DNA of 64,000 nt from assembly GCA_002245135.1 (NCBI GenBank), contig NGBS01000013.1, positions 62,001 to 126,000 on the forward strand, written 5' to 3'. Positions 1,200-55,000 of this stretch are shown here, in pieces; the stretch's first letter is position 1; every line of letters starts with the position of its first letter. Made by a program: the position numbers and the translations under genes. Under the pieces are notes generated by a model. That model was not told the origin of the DNA and made no database searches. It was given only the letters and a program-made list of their open reading frames with translations. The DNA is from Proteromonas lacertae. Its lineage: Eukaryota.

Positions 1200-1899
1200 T
1201 TTTCAAAAAATATTATCAAGCTTTTATCAAACATATTCAAAAATAAAATCGAAATTAATGATGAATGAGATTGGTTATTATGATGATAACTTTATATACA
1301 TATGTTTTAAGTTGAATGAGTTACATTTATAAGAATTATGTTTATTAAAATAGAAAATGACAAAAAACATTAAAAGAACAACAATATGATCTATTCAATA
1401 TTAGAGAACTGTTTTGATAATTCTATATTTTCTTCTTCTACAATTCCTGTTAGTTTCATTATTTCAATTGATTAAAACTCTTCTAAAAATGATTGTAATT
1501 CTGTTTTATCTATATTTTCTTTCACTGTTATTGACAAGTCATCTAAATTATCAAACAGGTTTTGGTTTTCTATCATCAATCTCAGCACTTCTTCATTTAA
1601 TTCATTTTCTGATAGATTCAACTTTCTCATTTTTTTTCTTTTCTTTTATTCATTCATTCTGTTTTTTATATCTTATACACTTTATTATTTCTATTCGATA
1701 AAAAACACTCACTTCTTTCATACTCTCTTTCAACACTTCACATACCTATTTCTAAATTATATTATGCTCATACATTCATGTCCATATTAACACTAGTTTT
1801 TAAATCATCAAAGATACTCTCAATTTCATTGTACATTTCTAATACACATTATTTGTATTGAGTGTATTATTTTGTATTGGATTATATATAAGTAAATAA

Positions 1900-3246: not shown

Positions 3247-3469
3247 TAGTTTGTATGATGTTATTTATAGTTTTATTCAAAATAAAAATGATATATATCC
3301 GTTTCAAAAATATATAATTCTAAAATGTCAGTTCTTATTTAGAAGAAAGTGTACTTAATTACAATGACAATATATTTAAATTAAGGTAATATCATCTGCT
3401 GTTAAGAAAAACAAACATGTAAAAAAGAGTTGTTTCAAAAATATATTCGTTTTGAACACTATTTTAGAA

Positions 3470-7315: not shown

Positions 7316-8759
7316 TCACTTTTTATTCCATATCTCATTCATATCAACTAAATCAGATTCTTCAACAATTCCTAAACACTTTCTAGCTTCACTCATCACA
7401 AAAAAACTTCCACAAATCACAATAACCTGGTTTTTATCAATATTGCTTGAAATAATTGACTTTATACTATAAATTGAATTTTCAACATCTTTAGAAACAA
7501 CAGTATCAGGAATTGAAGAGAAATTATCATTATTAGCAATCTCTTTGAACTGTTCCAACAAATATTGAGGATCAGCAGATCTTTCATTTTGAGACTTTGT
7601 AAAAACAATACTTTTTAAATTTTTCATTTTTAAAATTTCTTTTAAGTTATTTTTACAATCTTTATCAACGCACATTCCTACAATTACATGATAAATAATA
7701 TCTTTGTTTTCTTTTAAATCATATTTTAATAAATCATGAATCATATACTCAAATGCATGAGGGTTATGACAAGCATCACATAATATTTCTATTGATTTGT
7801 CTTTATTCAATTTAGATGGGAAAAAAGAGGGAGAAATTAACGAAGTAATCCATTCAAATCTACAGCTTGGTCTAATTGACAATATATCATCTATATCATC
7901 ATTTATTTTTAGCTTTTTATCTATTATTTATTACATAAAAACAAATTATTATATATATACCATTTTGACACAGTATTTCAATACACTTTTTACATATTCG
8001 AATATTTTCCTCATCATAACTACAATCTTCTTTTATAGATACTGGATAAAATGGAGAATTGTGATCTTTTGATATTGAGCACAATAAATCTATTGGACAA
8101 TGAGGACCACACACGATTGGTTTCTATAACTATTAATAATTATCATATACATTATCTTTGATAATTCCTGCTTTTTCCTTACATATTTCTTCTACTGTAG
8201 ATCCCAATATTTTTGTATGATCCAACGATACAGATGTAATAACAGAAATCTCAGGAATGACAATATTTGTAGCATCATTTTTACCACCTAATCCAACTTC
8301 AATTACAGCATAATCAGTTTTCTTTAATTTGAAAAATAATAGTGATAATAAAAATAAAGTCTATCACAATATATTTTTTATAGTATACTTCAAAGTATGT
8401 TACTTCGATGTGATTATTTTCTGAGACATTGAATATTTCTTCAAGCAATGGTATTGACTCTTCTTCTGTTATCATTTTACCATCAACAATAATACGCTCC
8501 CTAAATGTATTAACATGAGGAGAGAGAAAAGTTCCAGTACAATAGCTACTTATTATTTTCACAAAATATACCCAAAATGTCTCAAATAGTATGATAATTT
8601 TGTTACTACTGATCCTTTACCATTCGTGCCTGCTACATGAATGATTTTTGCTGATTTGCGAGGAACATTCAACAATTTTGCCATGGCTTCAATTCTATCT
8701 AATCCAAATACCACACCACGCATAAATCGAAGATCTGATAATTTATTTAGAACTGACAT
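7316..8759 (-). CDS. folC: Folylpolyglutamate synthase / dihydrofolate synthase
   Basis: IIHVAGTNGKGS P-loop, SPHV.TFRERI, AVIEVGLGG..DATN, LDHTKILG...EKAGIIK, DACHNP, ICGSFFV. Confidence 0.92.
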
Positions 8760-8837
8760 TTTAGAATTATATATTTTTGAAACGGATATATATCATTTTT
8801 ATTTTGAATAAAACTATAAATAACATCATACAAACTA

Positions 8838-10184
8838 TTATATTAACTTTTTACTTTCTAAATATTTATATCTCTGTTTACATTGACGACTACTTCGATT
8901 TACTAATATTTTTGAAATTTTGATCCAACTTCCTTTTTCTTCTTTATATAATTTCAATAATAATTCATCTTCTTCTTCACACCACTTCTCTCTTATCATC
9001 TTCGGATTTAAACTCTCCCATTTCTGTCGACATTGAATATCACTTCGATCTTCAAATAATTCACTTATTTTTATCCATTGATCACCATATATTTTCATTC
9101 CACATAATAATTTTATTGTGTCTTTTTTATTCCATATTCCTCTATTATTCATATTATATATATATATATAGATATTATACAGTTTTCTGCATTTATTCTT
9201 TATTATTCGATATCTACAACTACATAGTTGAGGATTTCGTCCTTCTATCATTTTTGAAATTTTTAACCAATTTTCACCATATTTTGAAACATATTTCATT
9301 AACATATCATCTTCACTTTTACTCCATTCACCTTTACATAACACACGATTCAAATATCTTTGATAATGTTTTAAACATTCAATTGCACTTCGATTTCTTC
9401 CTAATTCTATACTGATTTTTAACCAATTACAACCATTATATTTTTCCACTAATTTCATTAACAAAATCTCTTCTTTTTCATTCCATTTTTCTTTGTTTAA
9501 ATTATCATCACAATTGTAGTGATAATAGATATAACATTCACTTTTATTTCGATTTTCTAAATCATTACAAATACTATTCCAGTTTAAATGACCTAATAAT
9601 TCACTTTCTACTTTCATTTCTTTTAAATTTTTCATTTTATTTTCAATATCTTCTATATCGTTACTATTCATTCTTCCATCATTCATATTACTTATTCCAT
9701 TCATATAATTATCTAATAAATATTTTTGTTCATGTTTTAATACACTTTTCTTTAATTCGACTTTTTCTTTTTCACTCCATTTTCGATTTATTAACTCTTC
9801 ATTACTCTGATTATTTACACATATTATTGGTCGAAATGAATCACCATTCTTCAGTATGAAATAAGGTTTTCGAAAAGATTTACCAAATAAACTGCTATTA
9901 CTCACTTCACTTCTTATATTATTATCTCTTCCAACTACATCATTTAATCTCTTACTATTTAATGTTTCATTTATCTTCATTTTCACTCTTTCAAGTAAAT
10001 GGACATACTCATTCTTCACATTCGATAATATTTTCATTTCTTCATTATTCTCATGTATTATACCATCATTTACTGTCATATATTCTTCATTTACTACTTC
10101 TTCACTTCTTTCACCATTTATTAACATATCTTCGATTTCTTCATCTACATTATCATCATTATTACTTTCTTCATCAAAATCCAT
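8838..10184 (-). CDS. SNAPC4: SNAPC4-like Myb-repeat protein, copy 2
   Basis: Translation identical to 1900-3246. Confidence 0.75.
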   Translation of the reverse strand: MDFDEESNNDDNVDEEIEDMLINGERSEEVVNEEYMTVNDGIIHENNEEMKILSNVKNEYVHLLERVKMKINETLNSKRLNDVVGRDNNIRSEVSNSSLFGKSFRKPYFILKNGDSFRPIICVNNQSNEELINRKWSEKEKVELKKSVLKHEQKYLLDNYMNGISNMNDGRMNSNDIEDIENKMKNLKEMKVESELLGHLNWNSICNDLENRNKSECYIYYHYNCDDNLNKEKWNEKEEILLMKLVEKYNGCNWLKISIELGRNRSAIECLKHYQRYLNRVLCKGEWSKSEDDMLMKYVSKYGENWLKISKMIEGRNPQLCSCRYRIIKNKCRKLYNIYIYIYNMNNRGIWNKKDTIKLLCGMKIYGDQWIKISELFEDRSDIQCRQKWESLNPKMIREKWCEEEDELLLKLYKEEKGSWIKISKILVNRSSRQCKQRYKYLESKKLI

Positions 10185-10247
10185 TTATTTACTTATATAT
10201 AATCCAATACAAAATAATACACTCAATACAAATAATGTGTATTAGAA

Positions 10248-10611
10248 ATGTACAATGAAATTGAGAGTATCTTTGATGATTTAAAAACTAGTGTTAATAT
10301 GGACATGAATGTATGAGCATAATATAATTTAGAAATAGGTATGTGAAGTGTTGAAAGAGAGTATGAAAGAAGTGAGTGTTTTTTATCGAATAGAAATAAT
10401 AAAGTGTATAAGATATAAAAAACAGAATGAATGAATAAAAGAAAAGAAAAAAATGAGAAAGTTGAATCTATCAGAAAATGAATTAAATGAAGAAGTGCTG
10501 AGATTGATGATAGAAAACCAAAACCTGTTTGATAATTTAGATGACTTGTCAATAACAGTGAAAGAAAATATAGATAAAACAGAATTACAATCATTTTTAG
10601 AAGAGTTTTAA
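10248..10611 (+). pseudogene. Small, possibly degenerate LRR-like gene (mirror copy ~1473-1836 minus)
   Basis: ATG-led exon MYNEIESIFDDLKTSVNMDMN, a GT-AG intron, and a later segment MRKLNLSENELNEEVL (LxLxxNxL). The splice path is unclear and the 1-nt indel between the two arms lies here. Confidence 0.35.
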
Positions 10612-10883
10612 TCAATTGAAATAATGAAACTAACAGGAATTGTAGAAGAAGAAAATATAGAATTATCAAAACAGTTCTCTAATATTGAATAGATCATATT
10701 GTTGTTCTTTTAATGTTTTTTGTCATTTTCTATTTTAATAAACATAATTCTTATAAATGTAACTCATTCAACTTAAAACATATGTATATAAAGTTATCAT
10801 CATAATAACCAATCTCATTCATCATTAATTTCGATTTTATTTTTGAATATGTTTGATAAAAGCTTGATAATATTTTTTGAAAA

Positions 10884-12735
10884 ATGAACGTTTTAAAAGG
10901 AGAAGTATTAACTTTGATGGGTAATGAGTATGGTATGAATGATGGAGATTATGATGTTTGTGAATTTGGTTCACCATGTGGAATATGTTACGATTTCAAA
11001 AATGAGTGTTTATTAATAAGTGATTTTGATAATAACAACATTCGAAAAATTAGTGGAATAGGTGAAACCCCTAAATGTGGTACAATAATAGGAAGTGGTT
11101 TAGTAGGTGAAGAAAGTGGTATTAGTTCTTCCGTTGAGTTTTGTCATCCTTCAGACATTGTATGTTATAGTAAAAATGACGAAATGTTTTACTTAATAAG
11201 TGATACAGGAAATAATCGAATTTTAAGTTATTCAAGCAAAACAGAAGAAGTTGAAGTATTATATGGAAATAATGAAAGTTATCCAATGTTATTAAATCCT
11301 CGATGTATGTCAATAAATAACGATGAATTATATATAACAAGTGATAATGGAATAGTGATAATATGTTTAAGTAATGGAAATTATATTGATACAATAGGTA
11401 ATGGATATAGAAAAGATTATGAAAATAATAATAATAATAATGAAGAAGAATATAGTTTAATAGATGGAAGTTTTAATGAATCAATATTTAATCATCCTGA
11501 TGGAATAATATACAATAATAACAAATTATATGTTTGTGATTGTTTTAATCATGTAATTCGTTTAATTGATTTAAAAATGAAGAGAGTGAAAACCTTAGTA
11601 GGGAATGGTGAGAGTGGATATAAAAATGGTTCATTTAATGAATGTAAATTATATTATCCTCGAAGATTATGTATATTTTCAAATGGATTATTATTAAGTG
11701 AAATGAGTGATACAATAAGATATATAGATTTGAGTAGTGGAATAATAAATACTTATTGTGGAAATGGTCATAGTGGTTATGTAGATGGTAAAGCGAGTAG
11801 TTGTGAATTTAGTAGTCCAATTGGAATAAGCTTAATAGAATATCAAATGAATTTATTTGTTGTATATCAATATAATAATATAATGAAAATAGTGTGATAG
11901 TGGTAATAATAAAATAAGAGTAATTCAATATTCGTCAGGTTCTTTACCAGTTATAAATGCCAATAAAAATAAAATAACAAATACAAATACTTCAATTGAA
12001 TCAACTAATATAAACAATACAACAATAACAAACAATCGTATTATTAATATATTATATAATAATAGATTCAGTTTATGAAGATCAATATAATAATATAATG
12101 AAAGATATGTTGATAAAATCAAAGTATATAATATAATTAATTTATATATTTTAGATGTTTATTACAAGGATATGATATGCAATTAATAAGAAAGAAATAC
12201 AATTCAAAGAAAGTAAATACGTCCTTAATTCCCTTATTTCGAGGAATTGCGATAATTACTCATCAAAATAAGCCAAATACAGTTGAAGAATGTACCAATA
12301 TGTTATTACAACCCAATTTCTTATCATTAATGAATAATTTGAGATTTAATAATATAAGATACAGTAATAACGATTATTCTCAATTAATCATAGTAATAAA
12401 ACAGATTCATAATAATAAAATATATAATGTAAATAATAATAATAATAATAATAATAATATATTTAAATAGATAGCTGAATTCTCAACCTTAGTAAAATGG
12501 TTAGAAAGTATGGAAAAGATATTATATTATTATATTAATCATTAGTATAATATAATTATGTGTTATATATATTTATAGTGAGACAAGTCATGAAAGTGTA
12601 TATAAAAGAAATGAAGATAATGAGAGTAAGAATATGGATATATAAAAAGAAAAAGTGAAAGAATTAATAAAACATATAGAAGAAGGTGAAGAATATGAAT
12701 CTGATTTATTATCTCTCAAACCATTAGTTATATAA
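10884..12735 (+). CDS. NHL-repeat protein with C-terminal extension (multi-exon; 3' end approximate)
   Basis: NHL repeats; an intron at ~11862-11892 restores NLFV|CDSGNNKIR; further short exons follow to ~12735. Confidence 0.7.
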
Positions 12736-21781: not shown

Positions 21782-24700
21782 TTAATCATCGCCTTTAGGG
21801 CTAATTACTCGTGCAGAGCATAATGGTGTGGTTGATTCAGATCCTCTCTGGTTCTGAATACGTCTAGTACTCATAGAGCTACTTTTATCGAATCTTCTAC
21901 TATAACAAGAGCCAACTATTCCAACTCCTTCATCGAAAAAATGCTGAGGTTCAGAAATAGTTGCTAATCCAAAATCACCAAAATAAAACACATCTGGGAA
22001 TATTCTAAACCTACCTCTTGAAGCTGCTACTTTTAATTGCCTATTACGATTCCTATTTTATAATAAAATAAATATGATAAATAAATACTCTAACGAATTT
22101 GAATTACTACTCCTTGAACCAAACGTACCTGATGTAAATGTAGTAGATAGTTCAGTTGTGTATAAGAACATCACTTTAGATCCAAATTGTATTAACAATA
22201 TGATAAATACACCTAATTCAATGCCTAAACTACGTAATAACATCAAAGTATCAGTTTCACTGGACATTAAATAATCCAATGGAACTAATATCACACCCAT
22301 AATAATCATAATAGCAATTGTCGCCATTAATGACATTGATTCATTAAATTCAGCTGAAGCATTTCTCACACCCCATGCAAGTTTTGCACCCCAGAAGAAT
22401 AGCAAGAAAACGGCTACTAATTCAATTACACTATATTAATAAATAATAATAATAATATATACACAAATATTGTATTGGAAGTACATTCTCTCATATACAC
22501 ATCATCTAAATACGTTGAATAACCGCTGCTAAATGATAATGTCGGTTCAGATGGTGATACAATTTGCCATATAACTAAATACACAATTTGAACAGATAAA
22601 ATAAATCCAATCATCTTCAACAACATAATATTTGATACTTTTACTTTCTGTAATTGTTTATTATTAAATAATTTATGAATTCTCCATGCTTTACTAAACA
22701 TAATACTGAATAATAAATTAATAGACAAAGACAGTCCCCAGATTCTAGCAGCACAAGTTACTTCATTATCTGCTAACAAAGTAAATACATCACCCATTAT
22801 AGCTAAAATAACCAATGAGATTAAAGCATAATATAAAAACAAAGGACTGGCACTTTTAATGATTCTTGTATGTCTGAATAGATAAACAATTGTTCCAACC
22901 AATAAAGAAGCAACACCATTCACTATACTAAAGGAAATAGAAACCCATCTAAATGCTTCATTCAATTCATAATAAACTTTATTCTTAAAGAATTTACAAT
23001 CTTCATTAGATTGGTAAGTCATTGTTCCTTCTACTATATATTCTATTCCTTGTTGCGGGAAAACTTGAATCAATGATGTATCTGATAATTGGAAGATAAA
23101 AACATCTTTTGATATTTGGTTATTATTCTCAGTTTTGATTGGACCAGAAGGACTATCATATGTTATATACTTTAAACTCAATTTTATATAATCATTACCA
23201 GGCCATTCACATCCATTACAGTAAGACATTGAATATTGTACAGCTTGTATCCATGTATAAATTGTACTATATGTATTTTCTAATACTTCATTTAATTCAA
23301 TTGAATCTTGATATTCAGCTGTCATTAAATATTGAAATGCGCCTGAAGCAGTGTTTGTGACAGATGGTGAATATGAAGTAACAACATAAGAACCTGTCAA
23401 TTTTTTTAAATTATCAGAACTTAAATCTAAAGGATCATATTTCATAAAGAATATAACAGTGGAACTAGTAATAGAGGAATCAATATATCCATTAATAAAC
23501 TGCGTATTTTCACTTGCAAAGTATAAGTTAATAATTGCTACACGATTTAATTTATCTAATTTACTTTCTATATCCTTCAACATTTGTTGAACATATAATG
23601 TATTAAATGGAGATAAGAAAGAATGACCTACAATTTCTATATTTTCATCATCTTCATTATTATCTTCATTTATTTTCCTTAAAGATTGTTCAATTACATA
23701 TAACTCAGTTGTGGATGAATTTCTATCACTTCCAACCACATATAATTTCTTCATTCCTAATGTCTTTATATATTCCATTAAAACATCCACTTTTTGATTT
23801 ATACTCAATCCACCAACAATCAAATTTTCTTGACATTCAAATCCATCATCTCTACCAGTAAACAAGAATAATGGCTCTTTTTCTTTTAAATAACGACTAA
23901 TTTCAGTTCTACATTCAGCGGTTAAACATCCAAACATTGTATTTGATTTACCTACTTCATAAATTGCTCTTGCGTTTCTATAAGCATCAGATATAGTAAC
24001 CCAACTATGATTTGCTGCAATTTGCCTACCTAATATACCTCCAACATCATTCACTTCTTTTACTATTAAATCGATTAGTAATGCATTATATTTCTCAGTT
24101 CTTCCACCTAAATCTTTCTCATGGAAGAAGGTAATAATGATTGGATTTGTATTGTAATTTTTACCTTTGGATTTATCATAAAAATCACATATTAATCCTA
24201 TTTCACTTTCATTAAATTGACTGAATATCAATGGAGTGAATTTCTGAGTTGGAGACCAATCTACTACTATTTTACCTTCACTATTAATCGTACCACTGTA
24301 TATTCTTCTATTGAAATAATTGTTAGGATTTAATTCAACAGTATCAGCCGGAATACTCACAGTATAATGATACATTTCTGCAGTATCTTCTAAAACAAAT
24401 GAATTTATTTTTCTAATCACTCCTTTCCAGAAGGTTATAGCAGAATAAGCACTTTCATAATCTCCAATCACTTTATGATCATCACCTATTTGTATATGAA
24501 TATCAGTATTACAAGCAGAAGCTAATGTTGGAACTCCTACATTATTTAATTCACTATTTCCTAATGATTCAAAGTAAGAATCAAATACCATAAAACCATT
24601 CAAACACTGTTTGTTATTAGTATTCTTCAAGATTCTTTCAATTATATTTTCATTGAATAATGAGTTAAGAATTGTATAAGTTGGATATGTTAATCCATTT

Positions 24701-27700
24701 TCACAGACTAAATCATAAAATGCTAAAATATCTTCATCATTTGTAAGTACTGTGATTATAAAACCTCCATTGGGTAAAGCTCTTTGAATATCATTCACTA
24801 ATCTTCGTGTATTACTTTTATCTAAAATAACATTACCATTCGAAGTAATAATTAAACTTTTCATCTTTTCAGTCATTAAATCAGAGATTTTACTTGCAAA
24901 TTCATCAGCTGATCTTAGTATAAATGCACTGGAACTATATTCTAATAGTCTTCTCAACACTGCTTGAGTGATTTGAGAAGGATGTAAATGAGTTGCAACA
25001 ACATTTTCATAACATACATTACCCATTGATCTTCCTAAGAAGAAGAATATTTTATTACTTCCAGTCAATATATCACCAATTCTCTCTAATGTTGAAGGTT
25101 TATATCCACCAAATATGTAACTATACCTTGTATTATTTACTAATTTCAATAATTCACTTTCATATATATCATCCGATGATTTTGTATCAATAACAGTGTA
25201 ATTGATATAATTATCTAACAATAATCCATTTCGATTAATATCACCAATTGCTGCGATTAAACTGTCAAAGATGGGAGTTTCAATTTCTCTATCTTCACCT
25301 GTTAATGATAACATTATTAAGATTGTATAAGTAGCAACAGTATTTCCATCATCAATATTATCATTGTCAAAATCACACTTTTTAAATATTCCATTCACTG
25401 GTTCAAATGCTTCTGGAACAATCGCATAAGTTGAATCATAGATTAAAGTACTTGATTTATTCTGATTGAATTTCAATATTTTGGGTATTCTGGATAAGTA
25501 TTGATTTCCACTGAAATACACTAATCCTTCAGGTGAATTGTATTTTACACTTCTTAAAGCAACTCTGACATTATTCCTATCAAGATTAACTACTTGTATA
25601 TTCTCTTCTCTTTTACTTTTAGGTAGAGAATCTAAGGCAGTTTGCCATAGTTTAATTGAACTGTAAGTTCTAATCATAACATCTGATACATAAACATCTG
25701 AATCAATTCTTTGATATAATTTATTCTTAAACTCCATATTAATATCAGAAGTATCATCAGGATTGTAGAATTCTATATATTCATAGTTATAATAAGGTAA
25801 TTTCCTCATATGTTGAGAATTCTCCATAATAATTACGTTGAATGGAATTCCATTTCCATTGGTTGCTTCGTTAATATTATCCATTAAAACACTGAATGAG
25901 TCTTCATATCCAAAAAATAATATACAAACGGTTTGTTCTTTCATCATTGACATTTGTGAGATTTGTTCTTTTAATTCAGTTTGAGAATCTACTTCATTTT
26001 CTACATCATATGTAAAAGTAGTTATATCTTCAATTTTCATATTTTGGAGGTATTTCTCCACATATTTTGCATTATAAGCATCAATACCACTTTCAATAAA
26101 TAACATTATTTGATTATAGAATCTATTTCTTATTACATCCAATATCTTATCATAGAAAGTTGCATGTTTTACACCTATAAAATATGGAGCATCACAGTCA
26201 TTCAATTGAATTGATAATAATCTGAAAAATATTAATTCTGTTTCATCAGGGATTTCTTTTTCAATTTCATTCAAACATGCGTCATCAATTGCACCAAACA
26301 ATGCTATTGGATGATTATCTCTAATATATGGCTCGATATAGGTTCGACACAATTCTGGATTACCTTCTGTATCAAATATATCACCTTTTAATGTATAACC
26401 ACCAATACCGCCATTATCATTAATCTCATTAGTTACCATTTGGAAAATATCAACGTAACCTTCAGCATTCTTTGAAGTAGATAGAGCAGCAACTAAAGCG
26501 ACTTTTCTTGCAGGAACTTTGTATTTATAACCAACTTCTGGTGTTCTATCTTTAAATGAACATTGATATCCATAACTAGTAGGAATATTCCAATTCCAAG
26601 GTGAAGCACTTTGAACATCGTATTTGCTATAAATAGTTTGATAAGTCAAGCCGTCTGGATTGTATCGAATCACAAAGAATGGAGCTGTAACGTAATTATT
26701 ATCGTTCATTGTAATTATTCCACTACCAACTTGGAATGATACTCCATACGATCCTTTTCTTACTTTTTCTGTATCAAATGAATCAGCCTTTTTCACAGCT
26801 TCAGCATATAAATGGACAGCAGAATAAGATGCTTCAAATAATGAAGTTGGCTTATCTAAACTGACATAATCTAATGCTTTATTTAAAAACTTCTTATTTT
26901 CTTCAGTTGCTAAATCGTAAGAATATCTGACTATTTTGTATATATTCTTTCTATCATCTGCTGGAATTGTATCTGTTTCTTCCACTTCCAAAAACAAATC
27001 AACAACTGCGTATTTATCACTATCAATATTTAATCGATTGAAGTATTCCATGAAATTCTTAAATACTTCCACTGTAGTAAAAGTTGATATAATTATTCCA
27101 CCTTCAGTCATTTTTGATTGAATATCATTGAATAATTCATAAGTTATTTGATGAGATGAATCATATTTGAATTGTCCTCTTTTATTTATTAAACCAGAAG
27201 CTTCTCCTTCTATCATAGTTACTAAATTGTTAGAAGAAGGATCATCTTGAGAGAGAATATAATAATCATTCTTAAATTTTGAAGTTAATAAGAATTCCAT
27301 TAATCTTGTAATATATTGATTAGCAACCATTGAAGTGTAGAATGTATAATAATCACATTCTTCACCAGCTGTAATTCTAGGGAAATAGAACAATTTATTT
27401 GTTTCTACAGCTACCTTTTTTACAGCATTTTTACAGACAGGTTCTGTACAACCAACATATGCGACAACATCTTTATCTTGTTTCATTTCACTCAATATAC
27501 TCTCTAATTTACTAACATCACTATTATAATTTATAAATTTCACTAAAAATCGATGTTCTTTGATTCTTTCACCATCATATAATTCTCTTAAAGCTGTCAT
27601 AGCACCAAGAAGAGCTTTTTCATGTGCTTTCTTATACATTCCAGCTGTAGCAAATACTAATACAATCTTCTTTACAGGAACATCAGTAACAATTCTTTCA

Positions 27701-30700
27701 TTACGTAAATTACATTCTTTCACTGGTTCTGAATCTTCTAATACATTACCATAAGCTCTTTGTGGAATAGCAAAGGATGTTTGCTCAATTATTTCATATC
27801 CAATTTCATACTTATTATTACCATCAACATCAGCAGAAATAAGGTTTTTACTACCTCTTTTCAAGATCATTGGCATTGAATATCGATTGTTTAAATTAAA
27901 ATGCATCTTACCAATAATTGTATCAGATTGATAATCATATAAAGCATCTTTTATTCCTCTGAATGTAACACCACCAAATTTTGCACTTTCTGTCAACATA
28001 TTATTCAACATAAAACCTCTTGAAACTGCTCTACTTATAACAGGAATATAGGCGAACAAAGAAGAGAATAATGCTTTAGTATTTATATATAATTCATTAC
28101 TATTATCTTCAACAAAAGTGTCATAATAATAAGCACCAATACTCGCTTCTCCTAAGTTATACATATCTAAATCATCCATATTCAAACTTAAAGTAGTGAA
28201 TTTATTATTCAATCCAGATTCATATAATGCTTCTAAAAATGTAATTTTACTTGTTCCTTCTAAGATTGATACTACTAAAGCTCCATCTGGAGATAGTCTT
28301 TGTATATATTGTACAGCTTCTTCCATCTCTTGATTCTCTAATGGAAATTGTAAATATACTTTTGGTATAATATTGAAGGTATTTAAATCATATTTCAATT
28401 TTTCAGCATAATAATTTGAATGGGTTGTATCTGAGTATAATATAATCACATTTCCTGGACTTAATTTCATTATTGTTGGTACTAAAGTGTAATAAGTTGG
28501 ATATCCAATTCCACCATAAAATCCATTCTCATGACATTCATTCCCTTCATAATCCACTGGGTAAAATATAATACTATCAGTTTCAACTGCAGCTTGATGT
28601 AATGCTTCTCTAATTTCAGTTTTAAAACCACCTAAGAATAAAAACATATTGAAATATTCAGCATGATCTTTCAATCTTCTATATGCTTTTTCTGGATCAT
28701 CTCCTGATGATATAACATAAGTATTTACAGTCACTCCATTTATTCCTCCTCTTTCATTATTATATACACTGGAACTATATACAGCTTCATAAAATAAAAT
28801 AGATTGAGCTAAATACTCTCTTTGTGAAGATACAACAATTCCAACTCGATAAAAAGGTTGAGAAGCAGCATCTATTTGTCTATCTTTCCAATCACAAATG
28901 ATATAATCTTCACGATTCAAAGCAACACGATAAGTTTCACCTCTCCAATCTCTGCTTACATAATCTACTAACTCCGTTTCACCTGTTACATTACTGATTC
29001 TACCACAGAAGACAGTTTGTGCGACATGATTACCAGAATCTACTTTGATATTACCCATTACTGAAACAATATTGAAATTATAAATTGTTTTTAAGATTTC
29101 TGTAGTATCATGATAGTCGTTTAACTTTGAAAACATCTCTAAAACCCATCTTGTAGCATCATATATTACAACATCACTATAAGCTGGATATTGCCCAGCT
29201 GTTAAATCAAAATAAAAGTCTCTAAATTCTACATTTAATGAGTCACTCCTATCCAACATATCAGCAGTATACATATAATGTCCAGCTGCATATTCTACAT
29301 CCCAATGTCGATGAGTATTTTCAATTACATAGATTGTATAAATTTCAGAAATTTCTGTAGAAGTTCCTAAGTATTTGAAATAGTTGTAAAATTCTTCAAA
29401 GAATAGTTCAGGATATCTTCCTGTTAATAAAGTAACAATTACACCACCATTTGGTAAGATTCTTTCAATCATTCTACATTGTCCAATGATTTGAATCCTC
29501 AAGCTTTCTTCAGTTTCATTAACCAATAACATTCCTTGATGTTTTATCGTTACATTGAATGCAGTAAATACTGATTGTAGCATAGCAATTCTAGTAGCAT
29601 ATCGTTCTAAATTTGAGTAAATAAATGCAAACTCACTTAATGGTTCTTTTTGTAATAAATGTAACATATAAGGCATAATATCTTGAGATGGAGAAACATA
29701 TAAATATACAGTATTCTTACTACAATCTTTACCTTCATTAAAACCAGTATAAATGAATAGTAAATTCAATGCTTCAATAGTTGGTTGCATTGCTTCTCTC
29801 GTCTGTTGATCACATCCTCCTACAAATACTTTAAATCCTCTGCCATAGAGAGTAACTATCATTGATGATGCATCTTCTTCAAGCGTTGGACATTGATATA
29901 ATTCAGAGACAATTTCATGATTATTGACTCCACCATTGTAATTCATTCTTTCTATTGAGTTAAGGGCCATTACATATTTAACAAAACCTCCTCCACCTAA
30001 TTCAAGGAAAAATGCGATTTTGATCGGATCTATTTCTTCTAATTGTTCACTTGAACCAGCTGCATAAGATATAGAATAATATTTCAAATCATTATTTAGG
30101 AAATTATAAGGTTTTGGCTTTAATGGCATATCTGTCGTCATTGCTGGTAGGAATACATCACTTCCGTTATACTGTACAAAGGATAAATGAGTCGTTACAA
30201 AGTTTACATCCATTATTCTCTTTTTTCCATCAGGACAATCTATATCTAACAAATACAACTGATTTCTTAAATTTTCTGCAGATATATCTGATGATCTTGG
30301 AACTGCTTCTTTTAAAAACAATAAAGTATCGTATGAAAATATAAACTCAGTTCTTAATAGCTTTAAATCACCTTTAAATTGTTTAATTTTATTTTGTAGT
30401 TCGACATTTCGTATATAATCAGATTGTTGATTATATAACATTGCTCCATAATGTCCAATAAAGTAATCATCAGTAAACTCATGGGTTGAATAATCCATTA
30501 TGAATAACGGATATATTGTTTTATTTGTTCCAACTGTATCACTATAAGATGACACAAATTCTTCTAAATGGGAATTTTCAGTAATTAATGTTATTATTAC
30601 AAGTTGTGGATATTCTTGACACTTTTCATATACAAAATTAGTGAAATTCTCCATTGTCGCATTTATGTCTGTAGAATAATGGAATCTAATTGGTTTATTC

Positions 30701-33700
30701 AAAAAGTTTGCCAATTTCATAATATAATCATTTCTATGTCTGCCAACACTGTTATTTTGATAAACAATTCCAACTTCTGTATAACGATCATAACTCCAAA
30801 ATAATGGGATATCTAAAACTTGATTTGTAACAGATGACATTTGTATAATTGTACTGTAACTAAATTCACCTTGTGATAATGATATAACGAATATTAACTT
30901 ACCATATTTCTTAGTCACATCATAAACAGCTTTTCTTTCATCTAATGAATCAGTTCCTATAAAACAAAGTATGTTATCATATGCAATAACCGCTTCTTCA
31001 TAAACTGCAGAGATTGTGGAAATATCTCCATTATAATCTGTGGTTAAAATGACTAAATCTTTATCATTTATTCCACCATCTTGATTAATTAGATCAATTG
31101 CTAATTGGATAGCTTCGAGTCGTTGTTTACCACTGGCTGTTGATATATCGAATAATGCACCAATGTAGTAGAAATCATATTTGGCAATTCCATTTGGATC
31201 TATAAAATAAATGAAAAAATTTGAAGAAAGAGAGAGAGAAAAGAAATATAATATATATACATTTCTTCCAATCACAAACCAAAGTTCCATTCGTAAACAT
31301 ATTTTCACTTCTACTAAAAGAGTCTTCATATACCATCACACTTTGTCCATTCTTTATCTTTAATACTCTCAACAATGTCAATGCTTCACCACTATAATAT
31401 ATCTCATACGGACCTAACACAGGATCTGGTAATGGATAGTGATAAATATATGATAAATATTGTGATGGCTTAATATAAGATCTAATAGCAATTACTTGAC
31501 TCCACAAGTTAAAAACATTTACTAATATTCCCATAGAGTTAAAAAAAGGAAATGAAGTTGTATTCAATTGTCTGGACATATATTCATGAAACATTTCCAT
31601 TATATCATATTGATTATTTGTTCCATAGTTATTATCTTTTTTATGATTGTAATAATAATGAGCTAAATAGGTTACATTCTCAACATCATCAATACCAACT
31701 ACTTGACCTAATGCTTCGTTGAATAATAATGAGATTATTTCATACTTTGTATCATTTACTATACCTTTATATACTAATCTACGGAATAATGGTATTTGAT
31801 ATGTTTGTGATGCTGTAACTACTATTACACCACCACTATCACCTAAGTTACTAACAACAGTGTCTATTATATAATCAATAGCTGTTGAATCTGTACTGAC
31901 TATTAATGAACCGGATATATTTTCAATTTCATATCCATTTTCTTCTAATTTTTTGAGTAAAATTTCTTGGGATTTTCTACCATATAAATCACCACTCGAT
32001 ATTATTGCTATATCTTCTACTTTTTCCTCTTTTGCTTCTAAATAGGATATTAAACATTCTAAATAGTTAGCTACTATTGGATTGGCATAAATAATGTTCT
32101 TTTTACATTCATCTCCTTCATTTCCTGATAAATAAATGAATTGGAAATCTTCGTCTTTGAGTAATTCTGAAAGTTGTAGTCTTTCTGTAGATGAACTGAC
32201 GAGAATACCAGTACGACAGTCGTATAATTCTATATTTTGTCTTATCTATAAAAAAATAATATAAGTAAAATATATTTATACTATATCAGCTGTATCTTCA
32301 ACATCATCTTCAATATTCACAAACAACTGTTTAATTGGTTTTGATCTGATTCCTCCATAACTATTCACTGTATCAATTAAAAATAAGAGAAATGCTCTTA
32401 AATATCTATTTTCTACATTCCTTTCACCATCTACGTGCTGTATAAACATTATAGTAATTGAATTAAACTCAGATAAACCAGTATCTTTATTTAACGTGAA
32501 ATTACATGATGTATTTGAGTTTTGTCCCATGATTTGATCAGGTTCGAATGTATATTTTGGTTCTATTGTATATTTCAACTCTGGCTTGCCACCTGTAAAT
32601 TCAAATGCATAATTGGTTGCTACTATGTAATGATTATCTAAAAGAGTTAATTCACCTCCAGCATAGGGTATTTTTCGTTTGTAGAAAATGGAGATTAAAT
32701 CCATCACTTTTGAGGTTGGAAGTCTTTCTAAACCGTAGATTAACATGTTCATTATACCCAAACTAGAAATATATAAATAAATAAATATACGCATAAACTT
32801 CATCATAAGGAGCTGATGGATTTCCTTTTTTATATTTATTTATATATTTTTCATTCTCAATATTATTAAACGAATCATCATAACCACGCATTTGATAATT
32901 ACCTTTATTATTTGGAGGAATTGTATTTGGATTATTTAATTGACTTGATACCAAACTTCCATCTAATAAAATAACAGGATAATCTTCATTAGAAAATCCA
33001 TATGTTGTTATTTTCTCCTTTAAAAATTTATCATATACAATATTGTCCTGAGATGACCAATATGTCACTACCTTTCTTCCAAATTTCTTTATATTCTCGA
33101 AATATTCTTTTATTATTGTATCATTAAGACTTTGGTGATGATAATTACCTATTTCTGTTTGTCCATAGTAGTATGAAGCTTTAATTATCCTTACTTGATA
33201 GAATTCATCCAGTGTACGACTATCTCCAATAAATCCAACACCTTCACTACCTCTTGTCGACATTATATAAGCCACTATAAGAAAATATAGACAATTGAAT
33301 AAACTATACTTGTTTCTATTGTATTTATTAATGTGTTACCCATTATATATCTTTTAGTACATTTTGCAACAGGGAAATAATTCAAACACCAGATTAATAT
33401 ATTCTTTTCTGTTAAATACTTTTCAACTTCTTCTGATAATATTGAATCCACACAAAATGTATAAATAAGTGTGATATTTTTGTTGTAATAATAGTCAATC
33501 TGTGCTTTGATATCATCAACCTCGTACCGGTGTTCTTGACAATCTATTTCAACAGTAATCTCACCACCTGTTTTTTCTAGTAGTTCATCCTTGGTGTAAT
33601 CCTTTAACAGCTGGCATTTAGCTGCATCGTCAGAAATGTTGAACCTTTTGAGGTATCCTACCTTTAGATCAAATGAAGCAGCAGATGCATATATAAACAA

Positions 33701-33721
33701 GAAGAACACTAAAAGATTCAT
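21782..33721 (-). CDS. Giant class C (GABA-B-like) GPCR: signal peptide, nine tandem type-1 periplasmic-binding (Venus flytrap, UrtA/AmiC-like) domains, 7TM; ~3903 aa
   Basis: Six frame-consistent introns (33275-33309, 32763-32790, 32246-32281, 31200-31260, 22431-22462, 22053-22088) join the ORFs. Repeats of ~390 aa carry IN..GG(I/V).G and FY/F....EG.EC. The 7TM has RHTRIIKSASPLF, C.ARIW, FSKAWRI and RN.S.EFNES. Confidence 0.88.
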
Positions 33722-47088: not shown

Positions 47089-49574
47089 TCAAAAATTAAT
47101 TCCACTATTATTATTAATAAAAAAATATCCACTGTTTAGTATAACGGAACTATATTCTCTACATATTGGATCAATGTCATTTTTACTAATTTCTACTAAC
47201 CATTCACTTAATTCATTCAATTCATTAACAAAATACGATTCTAATATTACTTTAGGAGTAACTAATACCAATCTTGATAATAAATACAATACAGATATTC
47301 TAACATTATTATCTCTATGATATAAACAAATAAATATGATTTTCATTAATATTACATTATATTCTATAATCTTTATTGAATTATAACAACATTCATATAT
47401 TATTCCAATACAATATAATAATTTTGATAATAAATAACCATCTTTATTCAATAAATCAATTTGACGATTCTTGTGGTCTATTCCATTCATTAATGGAATT
47501 AAATATATATCACTATATTGTAAGAATTTGTTCTTTATTATCTTTGGTTTTTCTACTTTTTTAAATTCTTTCATTATTCTACCTATTCGTTTTATATCAT
47601 CTTTTTTATTTGCTTTTTCATTATTTTCATCTTCTTCTTTTACATCACATAGTTGTTTTGCACTTTCACTTAACATCTTCAATATCATTATTCTATACTC
47701 TAAATCTTTTTCTAACGAATAAAATTCTTTTATTAAGTAGGGAACTGTTTCTAATGGAATTAATGTGATTATTCTGATTATATTTCTATTTCGAATTTCT
47801 TCAAAATTTTCTAAGAAATAAGCATTTCTCATATTCAATAGTATAATACAGATTTTCAAACCATATTTTTCTATACCTACTGGAATGTTCTTTAATTGTT
47901 TAGCTAATGATAGTAAACTTACATCTCTCTTATCTATATTATCATCATCTTTCAATCCTTCAATTATATCTCGCAAATTGTTTTGATATTTCTCTTTACC
48001 AACCATTTTATTATCTTTTTCTATTAATTCATATGATTCTAAACTATCACTATCACTCTCATCATCATTATTTTCTTCATTTTCATTTTCTATATCATTT
48101 ATTAGTAATTCATATTCTTTAAATGTGTTATATTCTATTGGATCTATTATTAATAATGGATTTTCATAGATATTATTATTATTATTATTTTCAACATCAT
48201 TCTTTTTATCATTTTCAACTGTATTCTCATTATTTATTTCTGGATTTGTATAATGGTAATTAATACTATCATTTTCTTCATCATCTTCTTCATTTTCGGA
48301 AAATCCATCACATTCTATATTCTTATGTTCTTTATCAACAATATGGAATAATTTATTACTCATATATTCTCCATATCTTTTACAATATTCATTATTACTA
48401 TTCAATAAATGTTGAATACCATCCATCAAGTATAATAATCGATTATTATTATTTTCCACTTCTAAATCACTTTTTATCATTGATTCTAAACATTTCGTTA
48501 TTATTATACATACACATTTTTCTATTGATTTTTCATTTCTTAAACTAAACTCTTCTTTGGACCATTTTGGTAATATTTCATCCATTAAGGATAATATTAA
48601 GGATCGATTTATTGATTTGAGGTATTTTATAAAGATTTTTATTCTTTTTGATTGTAATGAAGTACTTAATAGTACGTTATTAATTATTGATTTATATTCC
48701 ATCTCATTCTCTATTGTGTCTTTATATAATGACAGAAATATCTCAAAATTCTATTATCATTATATTATATATAACAATATACTATTGACGAGGATTTACA
48801 TATTAATTTAAACATCTTTATTCTCACATTCAATGCATAAGAATTGAATTCTTTTATTAATACTCTTTTTTTCTCAAGATTATTTAAGGAACTAATATAT
48901 ATATCATTCAATAACTTCACAAATATTTCTAATCTTTCATTATCGAAATCTCTTATTATGGAGATTATTACATTGTTATTCTTTATTTTATTCTCTATCA
49001 AACCATCAAAATAACTACTTAGTAGATTGTAATAATAATTATTAATTTGTAAAAATCGTGGAATATTCTTTAAATAATAATTTGACATTCTATCAGCTAT
49101 TGATTTTAACAATTGAACTGTTAATTCTACATCAATGTAATTCTTTACATGCTTTTCACTTAGTTCACTTAATATTAATCTCAAATTATTTCGATTTAAC
49201 AGCACATTCAACATGGAAGTAAGGAAATTTGAGATTATTGAAGAGTTATTATTCTTTTCTTTCTTTTTTCTTTCTTTCATATATTCACATATAACTAATA
49301 TTGATAAAGGATATGTAGAACATTCGCCAGTAAAATAGTTGGACAAGTCTTCGATTATAGCTGGATTTAAACAATAAAGCCAGTTTTCAATTATTGAATG
49401 GGTTATCACCTTACCAATTGAATAATAATATCTACTTATAAATTTTGATTTTGTTGTTGGGGTTGATAAAAGATGAACTACAGCTTTGATACATTCTTTT
49501 ATCTTCTCTAAATTCATTGATCTTTTCATTATTTCAATTATTCCATTTATTTCTTCTCTATTTATTTCTGTCAT
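47089..49574 (-). CDS. TEL2: Telomere length regulation protein TEL2 (TTT complex)
   Basis: Acidic DESDSDSLESYEL, L.DII.GL, L..EFYS....L..RI.IL..L..SA.QL, KNKF...Y.IPLM, IDLL..D.YLL.KLL; one intron ~48732-48782. Confidence 0.82.
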
Positions 49575-52020: not shown

Positions 52021-55000
52021 TTACCAAAATGGACACCAACCAATATATAATTGACATAAATTCACATGATCTGTTGCCATTCTAATCAATTTTTGAACTT
52101 GATCACTCACATTTAAACTCTCATGAATAAAATCTTTTCCTGTTAACTTATCATTTATTCGATTTATTATTGCTAAAGCTTTTTCATTTGATACATCATC
52201 ATCACCATTATTATTATTAGTATTATCAAATGAGATATGATTTTGGATTAAACTATTACTCAATTCTTTCTTTCCTTCTTCTTCTTCTCCCATTTCCTCT
52301 TCCATTTCTTCTTCCATTTTTCTTTCTACATTTTCTTTTTCTTTCATTTCTTTATTGACATTTTCTTTTTTATTCTCTTCATTTTCATCACTCAATAATC
52401 TCCAACTAACTAATGGATCATGAACAAATGCTTCTAATAAAGCCATTAATGATTCTTTATTATCATTTTCTCTTAGCACACTCATCACATTCACACAAGT
52501 AAATCGGAAAGATCCTTCAATTCCTCGAACTTCCATCGCATTTATTAACATTCGAGTTAATCGGAATGGAATTGTTTCAGGAAAATGATCTCTCATCATT
52601 GCCACTTCAAAACAATCACCAAAATCAATATGACAGATTTTACCTGTATCATTATCTAACATTATATTACTTGGATGTCTATCTCCTAAACCTAACATAT
52701 ATCCAACTATTGACATTATTCCCATTGAACGAGTGAAATTTGTTCTACGTTCTAACCAACTTTCACTATTTACACTTTTCAACCAAAACATTTTATTCAA
52801 ATCTTGACCTCGAGTTTTTTCTAAGGCATAATCAAATGCTTCAACTTTACCTATTATTGTCATATCATCAAAATTGGGACATAATTGATATATCAATTTT
52901 TGTTCTACATTTATTAAGATTCGATGACTTTCTCGATATTCTTTGATTATTCCATGAATTGTATTGTGATTTTCTACCCATCCAATTAAACCAGCATTAT
53001 TGGATAATGGACAAGCAACATATCTTCGAATACTTAGATTTCGACGACTACATTCACTATCACTCTTTAGCAATTGATTTACTAATCCAAATAATTGCAT
53101 CACTCTTTCATCTTGTCTTAAATCTTCATGACCTTTCAATAAATATGGATAATTAATTCCATCACTTCCAATTATTATGATTTTTCGAGGTCTTTGTTTT
53201 GGATGGAATTACAGATAGTTTAGGTTGAAATCCAGCTATACAGATATTCTCAGTTTTTACTTTATAATTTCCAGGTAAAACTAATTCTAGATTCTTTGCA
53301 GCTAATAGTTTTGGTGAAGCATATTCTAAATTGCACTGTATGTAATAAATTGATTTGACTTCGAATTATTTTAAATACATGATAATACATACTCCAAGCA
53401 GCATCTAAATGACTTTTATTATTTTCATCATTTTTATATTTCAATATCCATTCATGAGCTTCATCTAATTCTCTTCCTAAACTCTGTTGAAATGAAATTT
53501 CTTTCATTGTAACTGCTCCTTTTTTCATCATCACATGTAATTTTTCTAAGATATTAATCATTTCTTTTATATCATTTTGTATAAAGAAAGTTCGGCTTGC
53601 ATCTTCCAAACCTTCAAACCACATTTCACTCCATAAAATAGCCACTCTCATTAATTCACTACTTACCATTGTTGCTTGTTCTACTAATTCAGGATATTTC
53701 TCTTTCATTTTATATAAGATCTTCTGACCATTTCTTTGTTTATTCTCCGAATCTGAACTTACTGAAACTGTTAATGAATAGATTAATGATTGAGGATGAC
53801 TTTCACCTAATTTCGTCAAAATATCAACTAATAATTTACTAGTGCTTTTGTTAGTAATATTTAATCGAGCAATCAATTGAGGAATAACATCTAACCAAGT
53901 ATCAATTGAGATTTTATTAATACCTTCATTTAAACTGTTATTTATTTCATTTATATGACCATATCTAAACATCAATGTTAAGATTCGAAGAATATCTTGA
54001 ATTAAGTTTGAACCATGCAAATCTTTTGAATATAATATAGCTTTAAAGAATGAATTAACCGCATTTACAATTATTCGTTTAGTGTTTTCATCCATCACAT
54101 TTTCTAATTTGTTGTTATTATTCAACTCTTTTTCTTCTAATTTTTTTATATACATGAAATAGGTTAATGCTAATTGATGCCAAGTTTTACTATTCTTATT
54201 ATCAAATTCTATTGCTTTATCTAAAGCATTTAACATATTCTCAAGTATATCTTTATTCATTTTATGATCATTTCTAGCCAATAACCATTCACTATAAGTT
54301 GTAAAGATTTTTACACTCAAATTCTTTAATTCTCCATTCTTTATTGAATCATTTTCACATAATTCACTGATTTTAATAAATGCATTTTCTTTCTCATTAT
54401 TTTCACCATTACTATTCCATAAGAATTTGCAATAACTATAAATAATCACTGGTTCTAATGAAGCATCAGGTAATCGATTAATTCCTAAATCATATAAAAC
54501 ATTTGAAGCTAATTCTTTATGGCTTTGTTTTCTACATAACGTACTGAATTTTAACCAAGATTCTAAATTATCACTCTTTTTTAATACTAAAGATCGAACT
54601 AATAATACTTTATTCCATACATTTATATTCTTCTGACAACCTGTTAATCGTTTATTCCATATACATCGCAACTTATTTTCATCATTTCCTAGATGACTTT
54701 TATATTCAATAATCTCTTCCATTTCAGATAAATGTTGTAATTTTACTAATTGTAAATAACAACGATTATATCCTTCATGAATTAGAGTTGATAAAGTTGA
54801 ATGTAAATAATCTCGACATTGATGAATATAGTCTTTAGCTTTATTGAAGTTTTCATTATGAATTGATAATACAGCTTGCATAAATGCATCATCTGCACTT
54901 ACCGTCTCAATTTTATCACTATTTCCACTACCACTACTTCCACTGCCACTACTTCCACTACTTCCTCCACTGTTACTGTTACTGGTATTATCATTATTAT

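What the first reader, a model, noticed from the sequence alone, without database searches (positions are those of the whole stretch)
21782..33721. Giant class C GPCR with nine tandem UrtA/AmiC-like Venus-flytrap domains
Seen: one spliced ORF of ~3903 aa with a signal peptide, nine ~390-aa modules and a class C 7TM. Modules start near 33670, 32465, 31180, 30030, 28858, 27678, 26514, 25335 and 24147. The 7TM carries IKSASPLF, KAWRI and EFNES, with no Cys-rich linker, as in GABA-B receptors. Known: animal class C GPCRs carry a single VFT per chain. The module motifs (IN..GG(I/V).G, FGCLTAECR, FYPVDYEGNEC.EN, ANQ) look more like bacterial urea/short-amide binding proteins UrtA/FmdD/AmiC than mGluR or GABA-B lobes. 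Inference: a multi-ligand or avidity-based nutrient/chemosensing receptor, possibly built from a horizontally acquired bacterial solute-binding domain amplified in tandem. I know of no described receptor with this architecture.
Basis: partly seen in the sequence, partly recalled or inferred. Interest (0 to 1): 0.92.

Follow-up and report, generated by a model that had tools for sequence, protein, structure and literature searches.

The report
Nine-flytrap receptor from bacterial urea binder
This eukaryotic gene encodes a giant seven-helix membrane receptor whose outer part is a chain of nine modules related to a bacterial urea-binding protein; distant relatives keep the urea-pocket residues but this one has lost them, so it likely senses other small molecules, likely through G proteins.

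Summary
Confirmed. The minus-strand gene (33721-21782, seven exons, 3903 aa) encodes nine type I periplasmic-binding (Venus flytrap) modules and a GABA-B-like class C 7TM. One unspliced 2969-codon frame already joins modules 3-9 to TM1-4, and an intron-free 3886-aa ortholog is collinear throughout. The modules are closest to the bacterial urea binder UrtA by profile and by fold (Z 44), not to animal flytraps. The gene belongs to an apparently undescribed family. Distant eukaryotic relatives also carry nine modules, five to eight of them with the complete urea pocket. The module order is shared with one of these relatives (best of 5040 permutations). Capsaspora has a shorter relative. In this gene and its AT-rich paralogs the urea pocket is gone (0 of 104 modules keep 4 of 5 core residues), so urea avidity is unlikely. 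The best reading is a disulfide-pinned stalk with new pockets (module 5 acidic, module 9 basic) acting on the 7TM. Ligand, dimer, expression and G-protein coupling are untested. Bacterial binding domains on class C receptors are known; a conserved nine-module UrtA array was not found in ten literature searches.

The parts
33310..33721 (-). exon 1: start codon, hydrophobic N-terminus (likely signal peptide), first third of module 1
   Evidence: junction aligns without gap to intron-free P0001 and P0003
32791..33274 (-). exon 2 (module 1)
32282..32762 (-). exon 3 (end of module 1, start of module 2)
31261..32245 (-). exon 4 (module 2)
   Evidence: Peripla_BP_5 E 3e-6, TIGR03407 E 2e-10
22463..31199 (-). 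exon 5: modules 3-9 and TM1-4 in one uninterrupted frame
22089..22430 (-). exon 6: TM5-7
   Evidence: 7tm_3 positions 170-251, E 2e-7
21782..22052 (-). exon 7: cytoplasmic tail and stop
   Evidence: tail 38 of 109 identical to P0001
32468..33670 (-). module 1 (aa 18-397), most divergent flytrap
   Evidence: no Pfam hit on exon pieces; ortholog has 9 Peripla_BP_5 stretches; Cys pair kept
31174..32461 (-). module 2 (aa 400-796)
30037..31173 (-). module 3 (aa 797-1175); lacks both Cys of the pair, as in its two orthologs
28858..30027 (-). module 4 (aa 1179-1568)
27682..28854 (-). module 5 (aa 1570-1960); UrtA Gln144 and Asn246 positions are Asp1670 and Glu1768: acidic cleft, candidate cation site
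26518..27675 (-). module 6 (aa 1963-2348), best sequence match to UrtA
   Evidence: PDB 8hic E 1.5e-20; TIGR03407 E 2e-31
25339..26511 (-). module 7 (aa 2351-2741)
24151..25332 (-). module 8 (aa 2744-3137)
22966..24144 (-). module 9 (aa 3140-3532), membrane-proximal; invariant Arg3237, Asp3239, Arg3280 at cleft positions
   Evidence: (UrtA Z 44.1, rmsd 2.5 over 371 residues)
22148..22974 (-). class C 7TM (aa 3530-3794) with Lys of KAWRI and Glu of EFNES (ionic-lock positions) and the TM3/ECL2 Cys pair

Best explanation
The gene encodes a class C seven-helix receptor whose ectodomain is a chain of nine UrtA-related flytrap modules that have lost the urea-pocket residues, and it likely works as a small-solute sensor in which closure of one or more re-specialised modules would be relayed through the membrane-proximal modules to the 7TM and likely on to a G protein. 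Shown: the architecture, UrtA kinship, loss of urea-pocket residues, and conservation of module order and of a Cys pair. Predicted by the model: modules 8 and 9 and TM1-4 sit in a defined arrangement, with beta strands in the linker and ECL2 as in the GABA-B stalk. Inferred: the ancestor was a nine-module urea receptor built from a cyanobacterial-type UrtA whose Cys-bearing C-terminal tail became the linker; each Cys pair pins a module as a disulfide; module 5 (acidic cleft) and module 9 (basic cleft) are the likeliest ligand sites, while most other modules act as spacer or lever; the receptor acts as a dimer.
For: Fold and family: pLDDT 93, pTM 0.85 for M8-M9-TM1-4; UrtA Z 44 > AmiC 42 > branched-chain binders 38 > mGlu8 33.5. 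Whole protein under selection: P0001 is collinear, with identity rising towards the membrane from 28% (M1) to 53% (M9) and 65% (7TM). Relatives with whole urea pockets: P0020 has 5 such modules, P0205 8 and P0206 7; in 6 of 6 membrane-anchored relatives the last module is degenerate. Order shared with P0206: best of 5040 permutations with degenerate modules 3 and 9 left out. In 26 AT-rich family proteins, 111 of 123 modules score best against the profile of their expected position. Both Cys are present in 92 of 94 modules scored. Pocket positions are more conserved than the rest of the module in M5 (p 0.028) and M9 (p 0.030). The ionic-lock residues are present. Intact eukaryotic modules form one group, sister to Synechococcus UrtA, SH-aLRT 95 and 95.
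Against: The pocket-conservation values for M5 and M9 do not survive correction for nine tests, and seven modules show no excess. TM7 reads FGSK instead of FxPKxY. With the window's modules in the tree they fall outside the intact UrtA group on long branches, so nesting inside UrtA is shown only for the relatives. The donor tree is a quick search with a single cyanobacterial transporter and hand-assigned labels. Order sharing was weak for P0020 (360 of 5040) and absent for P0205 (2134 of 5040). A z-normalised version of the position test gave only 70 of 105. P0205's 7TM lies outside the family branch. The window's annotated ORFs include no G-protein gene, and no genome was held to look further.
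Confidence: 0.55

Rival explanations
1. The nine modules no longer bind solutes and form a rigid spacer, adhesion or mechanosensing stalk, with the signal coming from contact or force or from a site in the 7TM.
For: Seven of nine modules show no extra conservation at pocket positions; pocket residues vary freely among paralogs at positions 6, 8 and 9; 24 N-glycosylation sequons and many invariant Cys; distal modules diverge fastest.
Against: The acidic pattern of M5 (Tyr-x-x-Asp-x-Glu plus an acid at the Asn246 position) recurs in orthologs and several paralogs. A mere spacer would not obviously keep nine distinct positions in order across lineages.
Confidence: 0.22
2. It is the non-binding, or G-protein-independent, partner subunit of a heterodimer with a paralog, in the way GABA-B2 partners GABA-B1.
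For: GABA-B-like 7TM; many collinear paralog-level relatives; altered TM7 motif; the 7TM is the most conserved part.
Against: No relative in the AT-rich group has an intact urea pocket to serve as the binding subunit (0 of 104); which relatives share a genome is unknown.
Confidence: 0.15
3. It is still a urea or short-amide receptor that gains avidity from nine sites.
For: UrtA and AmiC are the closest folds; distant relatives keep up to eight whole pockets.
Against: Window modules keep 0-1 of Trp120, Ser122, Gln144, Tyr190 and Asn246, each of which is needed for urea binding in UrtA (PMC10392092); modules are 11-19% identical to each other.
Confidence: 0.06
4. The model joins separate genes, or is an assembly artefact or pseudogene.
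For: No transcript of this gene was seen.
Against: An unspliced 2969-codon frame; an intron-free collinear ortholog of 3886 aa seen on two contigs; five of six junctions align without a gap and one within 1-2 residues in a linker; codon-position GC like neighbouring host genes.
Confidence: 0.02

Closest known systems
GABA-B receptor (class C GPCR; PDB 9jqx, 6uo8, 6wiv)
   Same: Best 7TM match (E 6e-14); no cysteine-rich domain; beta strands in linker and ECL2 in the model, like the stalk described in PMC8163086; ionic-lock Lys and Glu present.
   Different: One ANF-type flytrap per chain against nine UrtA-type modules; FxPKxY reads FGSK; no GABA pocket tested; dimer state unknown.
UrtA, urea ABC-transporter binding protein (TIGR03407; PDB 8hic, 7s6e, 7s6f)
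   Same: Best profile and fold match for the modules, including the Cys-bearing C-terminal tail of the Synechococcus/Prochlorococcus proteins.
   Different: Scores 40-109 bits against a cut-off of 493; urea core residues lost; fused in tandem to a 7TM, with no ABC transporter.
Non-animal class C GPCRs with bacterial binding domains (BMP, OpuAC, SBP_bac_1, PBP_like_2; PMC3251606, PMC5168858, PMC3971589)
   Same: Bacterial solute-binding domain on a 7tm_3; N-termini reported up to 1667 aa.
   Different: The passages read name other domain families and no tandem UrtA array; this ectodomain is about 3500 aa.
Capsaspora owczarzaki CAOG_05347 (XP_004347032.2; P0102)
   Same: 7tm_3 with 3-4 UrtA-like stretches; its 7TM lies on the same side of the tree.
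   Different: Fewer modules, with Ser/Pro-rich inserts; annotated only as hypothetical or family 3 GPCR.
BvgS sensor kinase (PMC4352136, abstract)
   Same: Tandem flytraps, with mobile distal and closed proximal domains straining the membrane helices: a working analogy for a degenerate proximal module.
   Different: Two domains and a histidine-kinase output, in bacteria; homology was not tested here.

Membership tests
Class C GPCR (7tm_3) | 7TM matching PF00003 | tested here: met
   103.6 bits for TM1-4 (cut-off 33.5) plus 31.6 for TM5-7; whole 7TM of P0001 128 bits
Class C GPCR (7tm_3) | Ionic lock K3.50 - E/D6.35 | tested here: met
   KAWRI and EFNES conserved in orthologs; aligned to GABA-B KxWR; motif defined in PMC8163086. 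The contact itself was not modelled.
Class C GPCR (7tm_3) | FxPKxY motif at end of TM7 | tested here: inconclusive
   FGSK in the window and P0001, FASK in P0002; FVPK in P0020, P0205 and Capsaspora; FTPK in P0024
Class C GPCR (7tm_3) | Large extracellular flytrap domain | tested here: met
Class C GPCR (7tm_3) | Obligate dimer | not testable with these tools
   needs experiment or a model of the whole chain
Class C GPCR (7tm_3) | Coupling to heterotrimeric G protein | not testable with these tools
   no genome held; needs assay
mGlu/CaSR/T1R subfamily | Nine-cysteine domain (NCD3G) between flytrap and 7TM | tested here: not met
   no such Pfam hit and one Cys in the linker
GABA-B subfamily | Single ANF-type flytrap | tested here: not met
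   nine modules; ANF_receptor hit in 3 modules only (best 37 bits) against Peripla_BP_5 up to 104 bits; 7 ANF rows form their own group without window modules
UrtA (TIGR03407) | Score above the curated cut-off of 492.75 bits | tested here: not met
   40-109 bits per module
UrtA (TIGR03407) | Urea core Trp120, Ser122, Gln144, Tyr190, Asn246 | tested here: not met
   0-1 of 5 per window module; met 5 of 5 in 20 modules of P0020, P0205 and P0206
UrtA (TIGR03407) | Type I periplasmic-binding fold with UrtA as nearest structure | tested here: met
   module 9: Z 44.1, rmsd 2.5, 371 aligned; modules 1-7 were not folded

The most novel reading that the evidence does not exclude
An ancient, undescribed eukaryotic GPCR family arose when a cyanobacterial-type UrtA was fused to a class C 7TM and amplified to nine ordered modules. 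Members such as P0020, P0205 and P0206 are urea-sensing GPCRs. In this AT-rich lineage the nine positions and many paralogs diverged into a multi-ligand array, in which each position reads a different solute (module 5 a cation such as guanidinium or an amine, module 9 an anion) and all feed one 7TM.
Probability: 0.3. Interest if true: 0.9.

Novelty: new variant of a known kind. Interest (0 to 1): 0.78.

Why it matters
Class C GPCR activation is understood for one flytrap per chain. A receptor with nine in series, kept in order across distant eukaryotes, raises the question of how a signal crosses up to eight modules, and whether one chain can integrate several ligands. Relatives with complete UrtA pockets are direct, testable candidates for a eukaryotic urea receptor. 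The family also shows, in readable steps, a bacterial transporter subunit being turned into a GPCR ectodomain: intact pockets, a degenerate proximal module, then wholesale pocket change.

Tried and rejected
No genome is held, so G-protein genes and paralogs in this organism could not be searched. Sequencing runs: none was listed; no RNA holder listed. A metagenome-contig scan with alignment A1 gave 382 pattern matches and 0 relatives. The genome-contig scan with P0063 gave 1 locus from 40 stretches. The single-sequence fold failed (pLDDT 36) and was replaced by the 46-row alignment. Module 9 homodimer prediction: no verdict. The protein atlas did not complete. Earlier findings: nothing in three look-ups. 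The AU test on the UrtA-bearing 7TMs did not finish; the careful donor tree did not finish and the quick tree is used. A self-BLAST of the whole protein printed no internal repeats; module-level comparison was needed. The recalled Blastocystis gene-end motif occurs 16 times with no clear tie to gene ends and was dropped. Recent tandem duplication was rejected (11-19% identity). Bacterial contamination was rejected: spliceosomal introns, eukaryotic neighbours, same codon GC.
Full report
Observation. The region holds one minus-strand gene. Six short introns (GTAT...TAG, 28-61 nt) join seven exons into 3903 codons with a single terminal stop. Splicing is not needed for the main claim: ORF 22426-31335 runs 2969 codons and carries modules 3-9 and TM1-4. 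Modules 2-9 each match Pfam Peripla_BP_5 and NCBIfam TIGR03407 (UrtA). Module 1, searched as three exon pieces, gave no hit in 0 of 3, but the ortholog P0001 shows nine Peripla_BP_5 stretches. The 7TM matches 7tm_3, with GABA-B subunits as the best solved relatives. The neighbours are ordinary eukaryotic genes (TOR, an actin-family gene, Myb, prolidase, amidophosphoribosyltransferase), and codon-position GC equals theirs.

Independent support for one chain. A search of 7116 candidates gave 4 orthologs at 38-44% identity. P0001 is a single 3886-aa frame, collinear from signal peptide to tail; five of six splice junctions align without a gap and the sixth within 1-2 residues. Identity to P0001 rises towards the membrane: M1 28%, M2 33%, M3 30%, M4 35%, M5 32%, M6 44%, M7 41%, M8 51%, M9 53%, 7TM 65%. 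The modules are only 11-19% identical to each other. No transcript of the window gene itself was seen.

What the modules are. Module 6 matches cyanobacterial UrtA structures at E 1.5e-20, including their C-terminal Cys-bearing tail. An AlphaFold2 model of M8-M9-TM1-4 from a 46-row alignment has pLDDT 93 and pTM 0.85. Module 9 superposes best on UrtA (Z 44.1, rmsd 2.5, 371 residues), then AmiC (41.9), branched-chain and aromatic binders (38) and mGlu8 (33.5). The model has beta strands in the module 9-TM1 linker and in ECL2, as in the GABA-B stalk described in PMC8163086 (passages); their pairing was not inspected. Modules 1-7 were not folded. The two Cys that align with UrtA Cys150 and Cys418 are both present in eight of nine window modules; module 3 lacks both, also in its two orthologs. 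In the family, 92 of 94 modules scored have both. A disulfide is inferred.

The family. A full HMMER search with M9 plus TM1-4 gave 2301 hits at E 0.001, of which 150 were listed. Among 155 proteins examined (those hits, three more, the orthologs and the window protein), 41 carry two or more modules and 26 of these also a 7TM part. Three of the 41 look bacterial and lack a 7TM. Most of the rest resemble the window gene and often end in what looks like intron read-through (my reading). In 26 of them, 111 of 123 modules score best on the profile of the position expected by counting from the membrane. A z-normalised version gave 70 of 105, still far above one in nine. Three very different receptors also have nine modules and a 7tm_3: P0020, P0205 and P0206. 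Their contigs are only 185-735 nt longer than the ORF, as a transcript would be (inference). Their organisms are unnamed; I call them eukaryotic because of the 7tm_3. P0102 is Capsaspora owczarzaki CAOG_05347, with 3-4 UrtA-like stretches. In a quick 7TM tree of 89 rows, 23 of 24 UrtA-array rows (one a fragment without a module) lie with one ANF-type receptor on one side of a branch with SH-aLRT 99; P0205 lies outside. The rows were picked by likeness to the query, and the AU test did not finish.

Nine positions are old. Profiles of each window position match P0206's modules in order: p 0.0005 with all nine, and best of 5040 permutations with degenerate modules 3 and 9 left out. The same test is weak for P0020 (360 of 5040) and blank for P0205 (2134 of 5040). 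P0020 against P0206 gives 2 of 720, and P0206 against P0205 17 of 5040. The array therefore predates the split between this lineage and that of P0206.

Urea pocket. PMC10392092 (passages) names nine pocket residues and shows that mutating Ser122, Gln144, Tyr190 or Asn246 strongly reduces or abolishes binding, and that W120A does not bind. P0162, a Synechococcus UrtA, has the same numbering. All five are kept in 5 modules of P0020, 8 of P0205 and 7 of P0206. In 6 of 6 membrane-anchored relatives the last module keeps 0-1. Window modules keep 0-1, and 0 of 104 modules in the AT-rich group keep four or more. Among orthologs, pocket positions are more conserved than the module average only in M5 (p 0.028) and M9 (p 0.030), which does not survive nine tests. 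In M5 the two amides that hold urea's nitrogens become acids (Asp in 5 of 5 rows, Asp or Glu in 7 of 7), and the Tyr that holds its oxygen is lost. This would suit a cation such as guanidinium or an amine (inference from chemistry). M9 has invariant Arg, Asp and Arg, which could bind an anion or lock the cleft.

Origin. In a tree of 57 rows (26 intact eukaryotic modules, 31 bacterial), rooted on a distant binding protein, the eukaryotic modules form one group (SH-aLRT 95), sister to Synechococcus UrtA (95), inside bacterial UrtA. Left out were all window-family and other degenerate modules, and the split Kovacikia gene. P0111 was relabelled eukaryotic by me, because it has tandem modules and the Cys tail. 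Unnamed bacterial rows were labelled from their architecture, and only one cyanobacterial transporter was included. The long tail with the Cys is shared by Synechococcus UrtA and the eukaryotic linkers and is missing from the 16 other bacterial modules printed; four plasmid-borne UrtA proteins end in a shorter Cys motif. With the window modules included they sit outside the intact group on long branches, and apart from seven ANF rows. UrtA origin is thus well supported; the cyanobacterial donor is a lead.

Organism. Not established. The neighbouring prolidase is 93% identical to one unnamed protein and about 50-55% to everything else listed. It groups with a tortoise Blastocystis protein at SH-aLRT 90 on long branches. 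Low GC and variable short introns fit the tortoise isolates in PMC12129017 (passages). A Blastocystis-related stramenopile is possible, no more.

Mechanism. Shown: architecture, kinship, pocket loss, conserved order. Predicted: a defined M8-M9-7TM arrangement. Inferred: closure of a re-specialised module is passed down a disulfide-pinned stalk to the proximal module and 7TM and breaks the Lys-Glu lock, as in GABA-B. BvgS is the analogy for mobile distal and closed proximal flytraps (PMC4352136, abstract). I give this 0.55, a non-binding stalk 0.22, a partner subunit 0.15, urea avidity 0.06 and artefact 0.02. The TM7 motif is altered (FGSK), and G-protein coupling is untested.

What is known. 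Bacterial binding domains on non-animal class C receptors are described in PMC3251606, PMC5168858 and PMC3971589 (passages). PMC3251606 gives N-termini up to 1667 aa. The choanoflagellate survey (bioRxiv 10.1101/2025.04.15.649019, passages and section 9) names no such array. For its eLife version one supplementary file was held and had no hit; its Supplementary File 10 and the architecture figures of the older papers were not seen and could list the Capsaspora protein. PMC8687355 and PMC12965686 (passages) add nothing on tandem arrays. Ten searches (seen as listings) showed no tandem-UrtA GPCR; the library lacks most subscription papers. Verdict: a real, conserved, apparently undescribed variant of class C GPCR; interest 0.78.

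Noticed in passing
window 1-3335 and 8749-12082: A 3335-nt inverted duplication at 99.94% identity carrying a Myb-domain gene and an NHL-repeat gene, around a unique 5.4-kb centre with an MFS transporter and a Mur-ligase C-domain gene; it runs off the window start. Recent duplication or assembly artefact.
   Followed up: partly
P0205, P0206, P0020: Nine-module class C receptors with 5-8 complete UrtA urea pockets: the best candidates for a eukaryotic urea GPCR.
   Followed up: partly
P0075: A separate tandem design: three ANF-type flytraps on a 7tm_3 (1716 aa, cluster of 8).
   Followed up: no
P0207: An EukProt protein with pairs of UrtA modules (intact then degenerate), Cys-rich repeats and a multi-pass membrane region that does not match the 7tm_3 profile: the same module on another receptor type.
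   Followed up: no
L005:3019-5701: A Kovacikia plasmid gene with a UrtA-like domain followed by what reads as GAF and histidine-kinase parts, in two ORFs (226 and 660 aa). P0137, P0112 and P0058 show UrtA-like domains on bacterial kinases.
   Followed up: no
window 52021-59800: TOR kinase gene (FAT, FRB, kinase, FATC) on the minus strand; a TELO2-like gene lies nearby at 47089-48750.
   Followed up: no
modules 6 and 9 (aa 2038-2043, 3212-3217): An extra Cys-x4-Cys motif, kept at position 9 in nearly all paralogs: a likely second disulfide next to the cleft.
   Followed up: partly
P0059: A class C receptor with a PBP_like_2 ectodomain and a C-terminal RGS domain.
   Followed up: no
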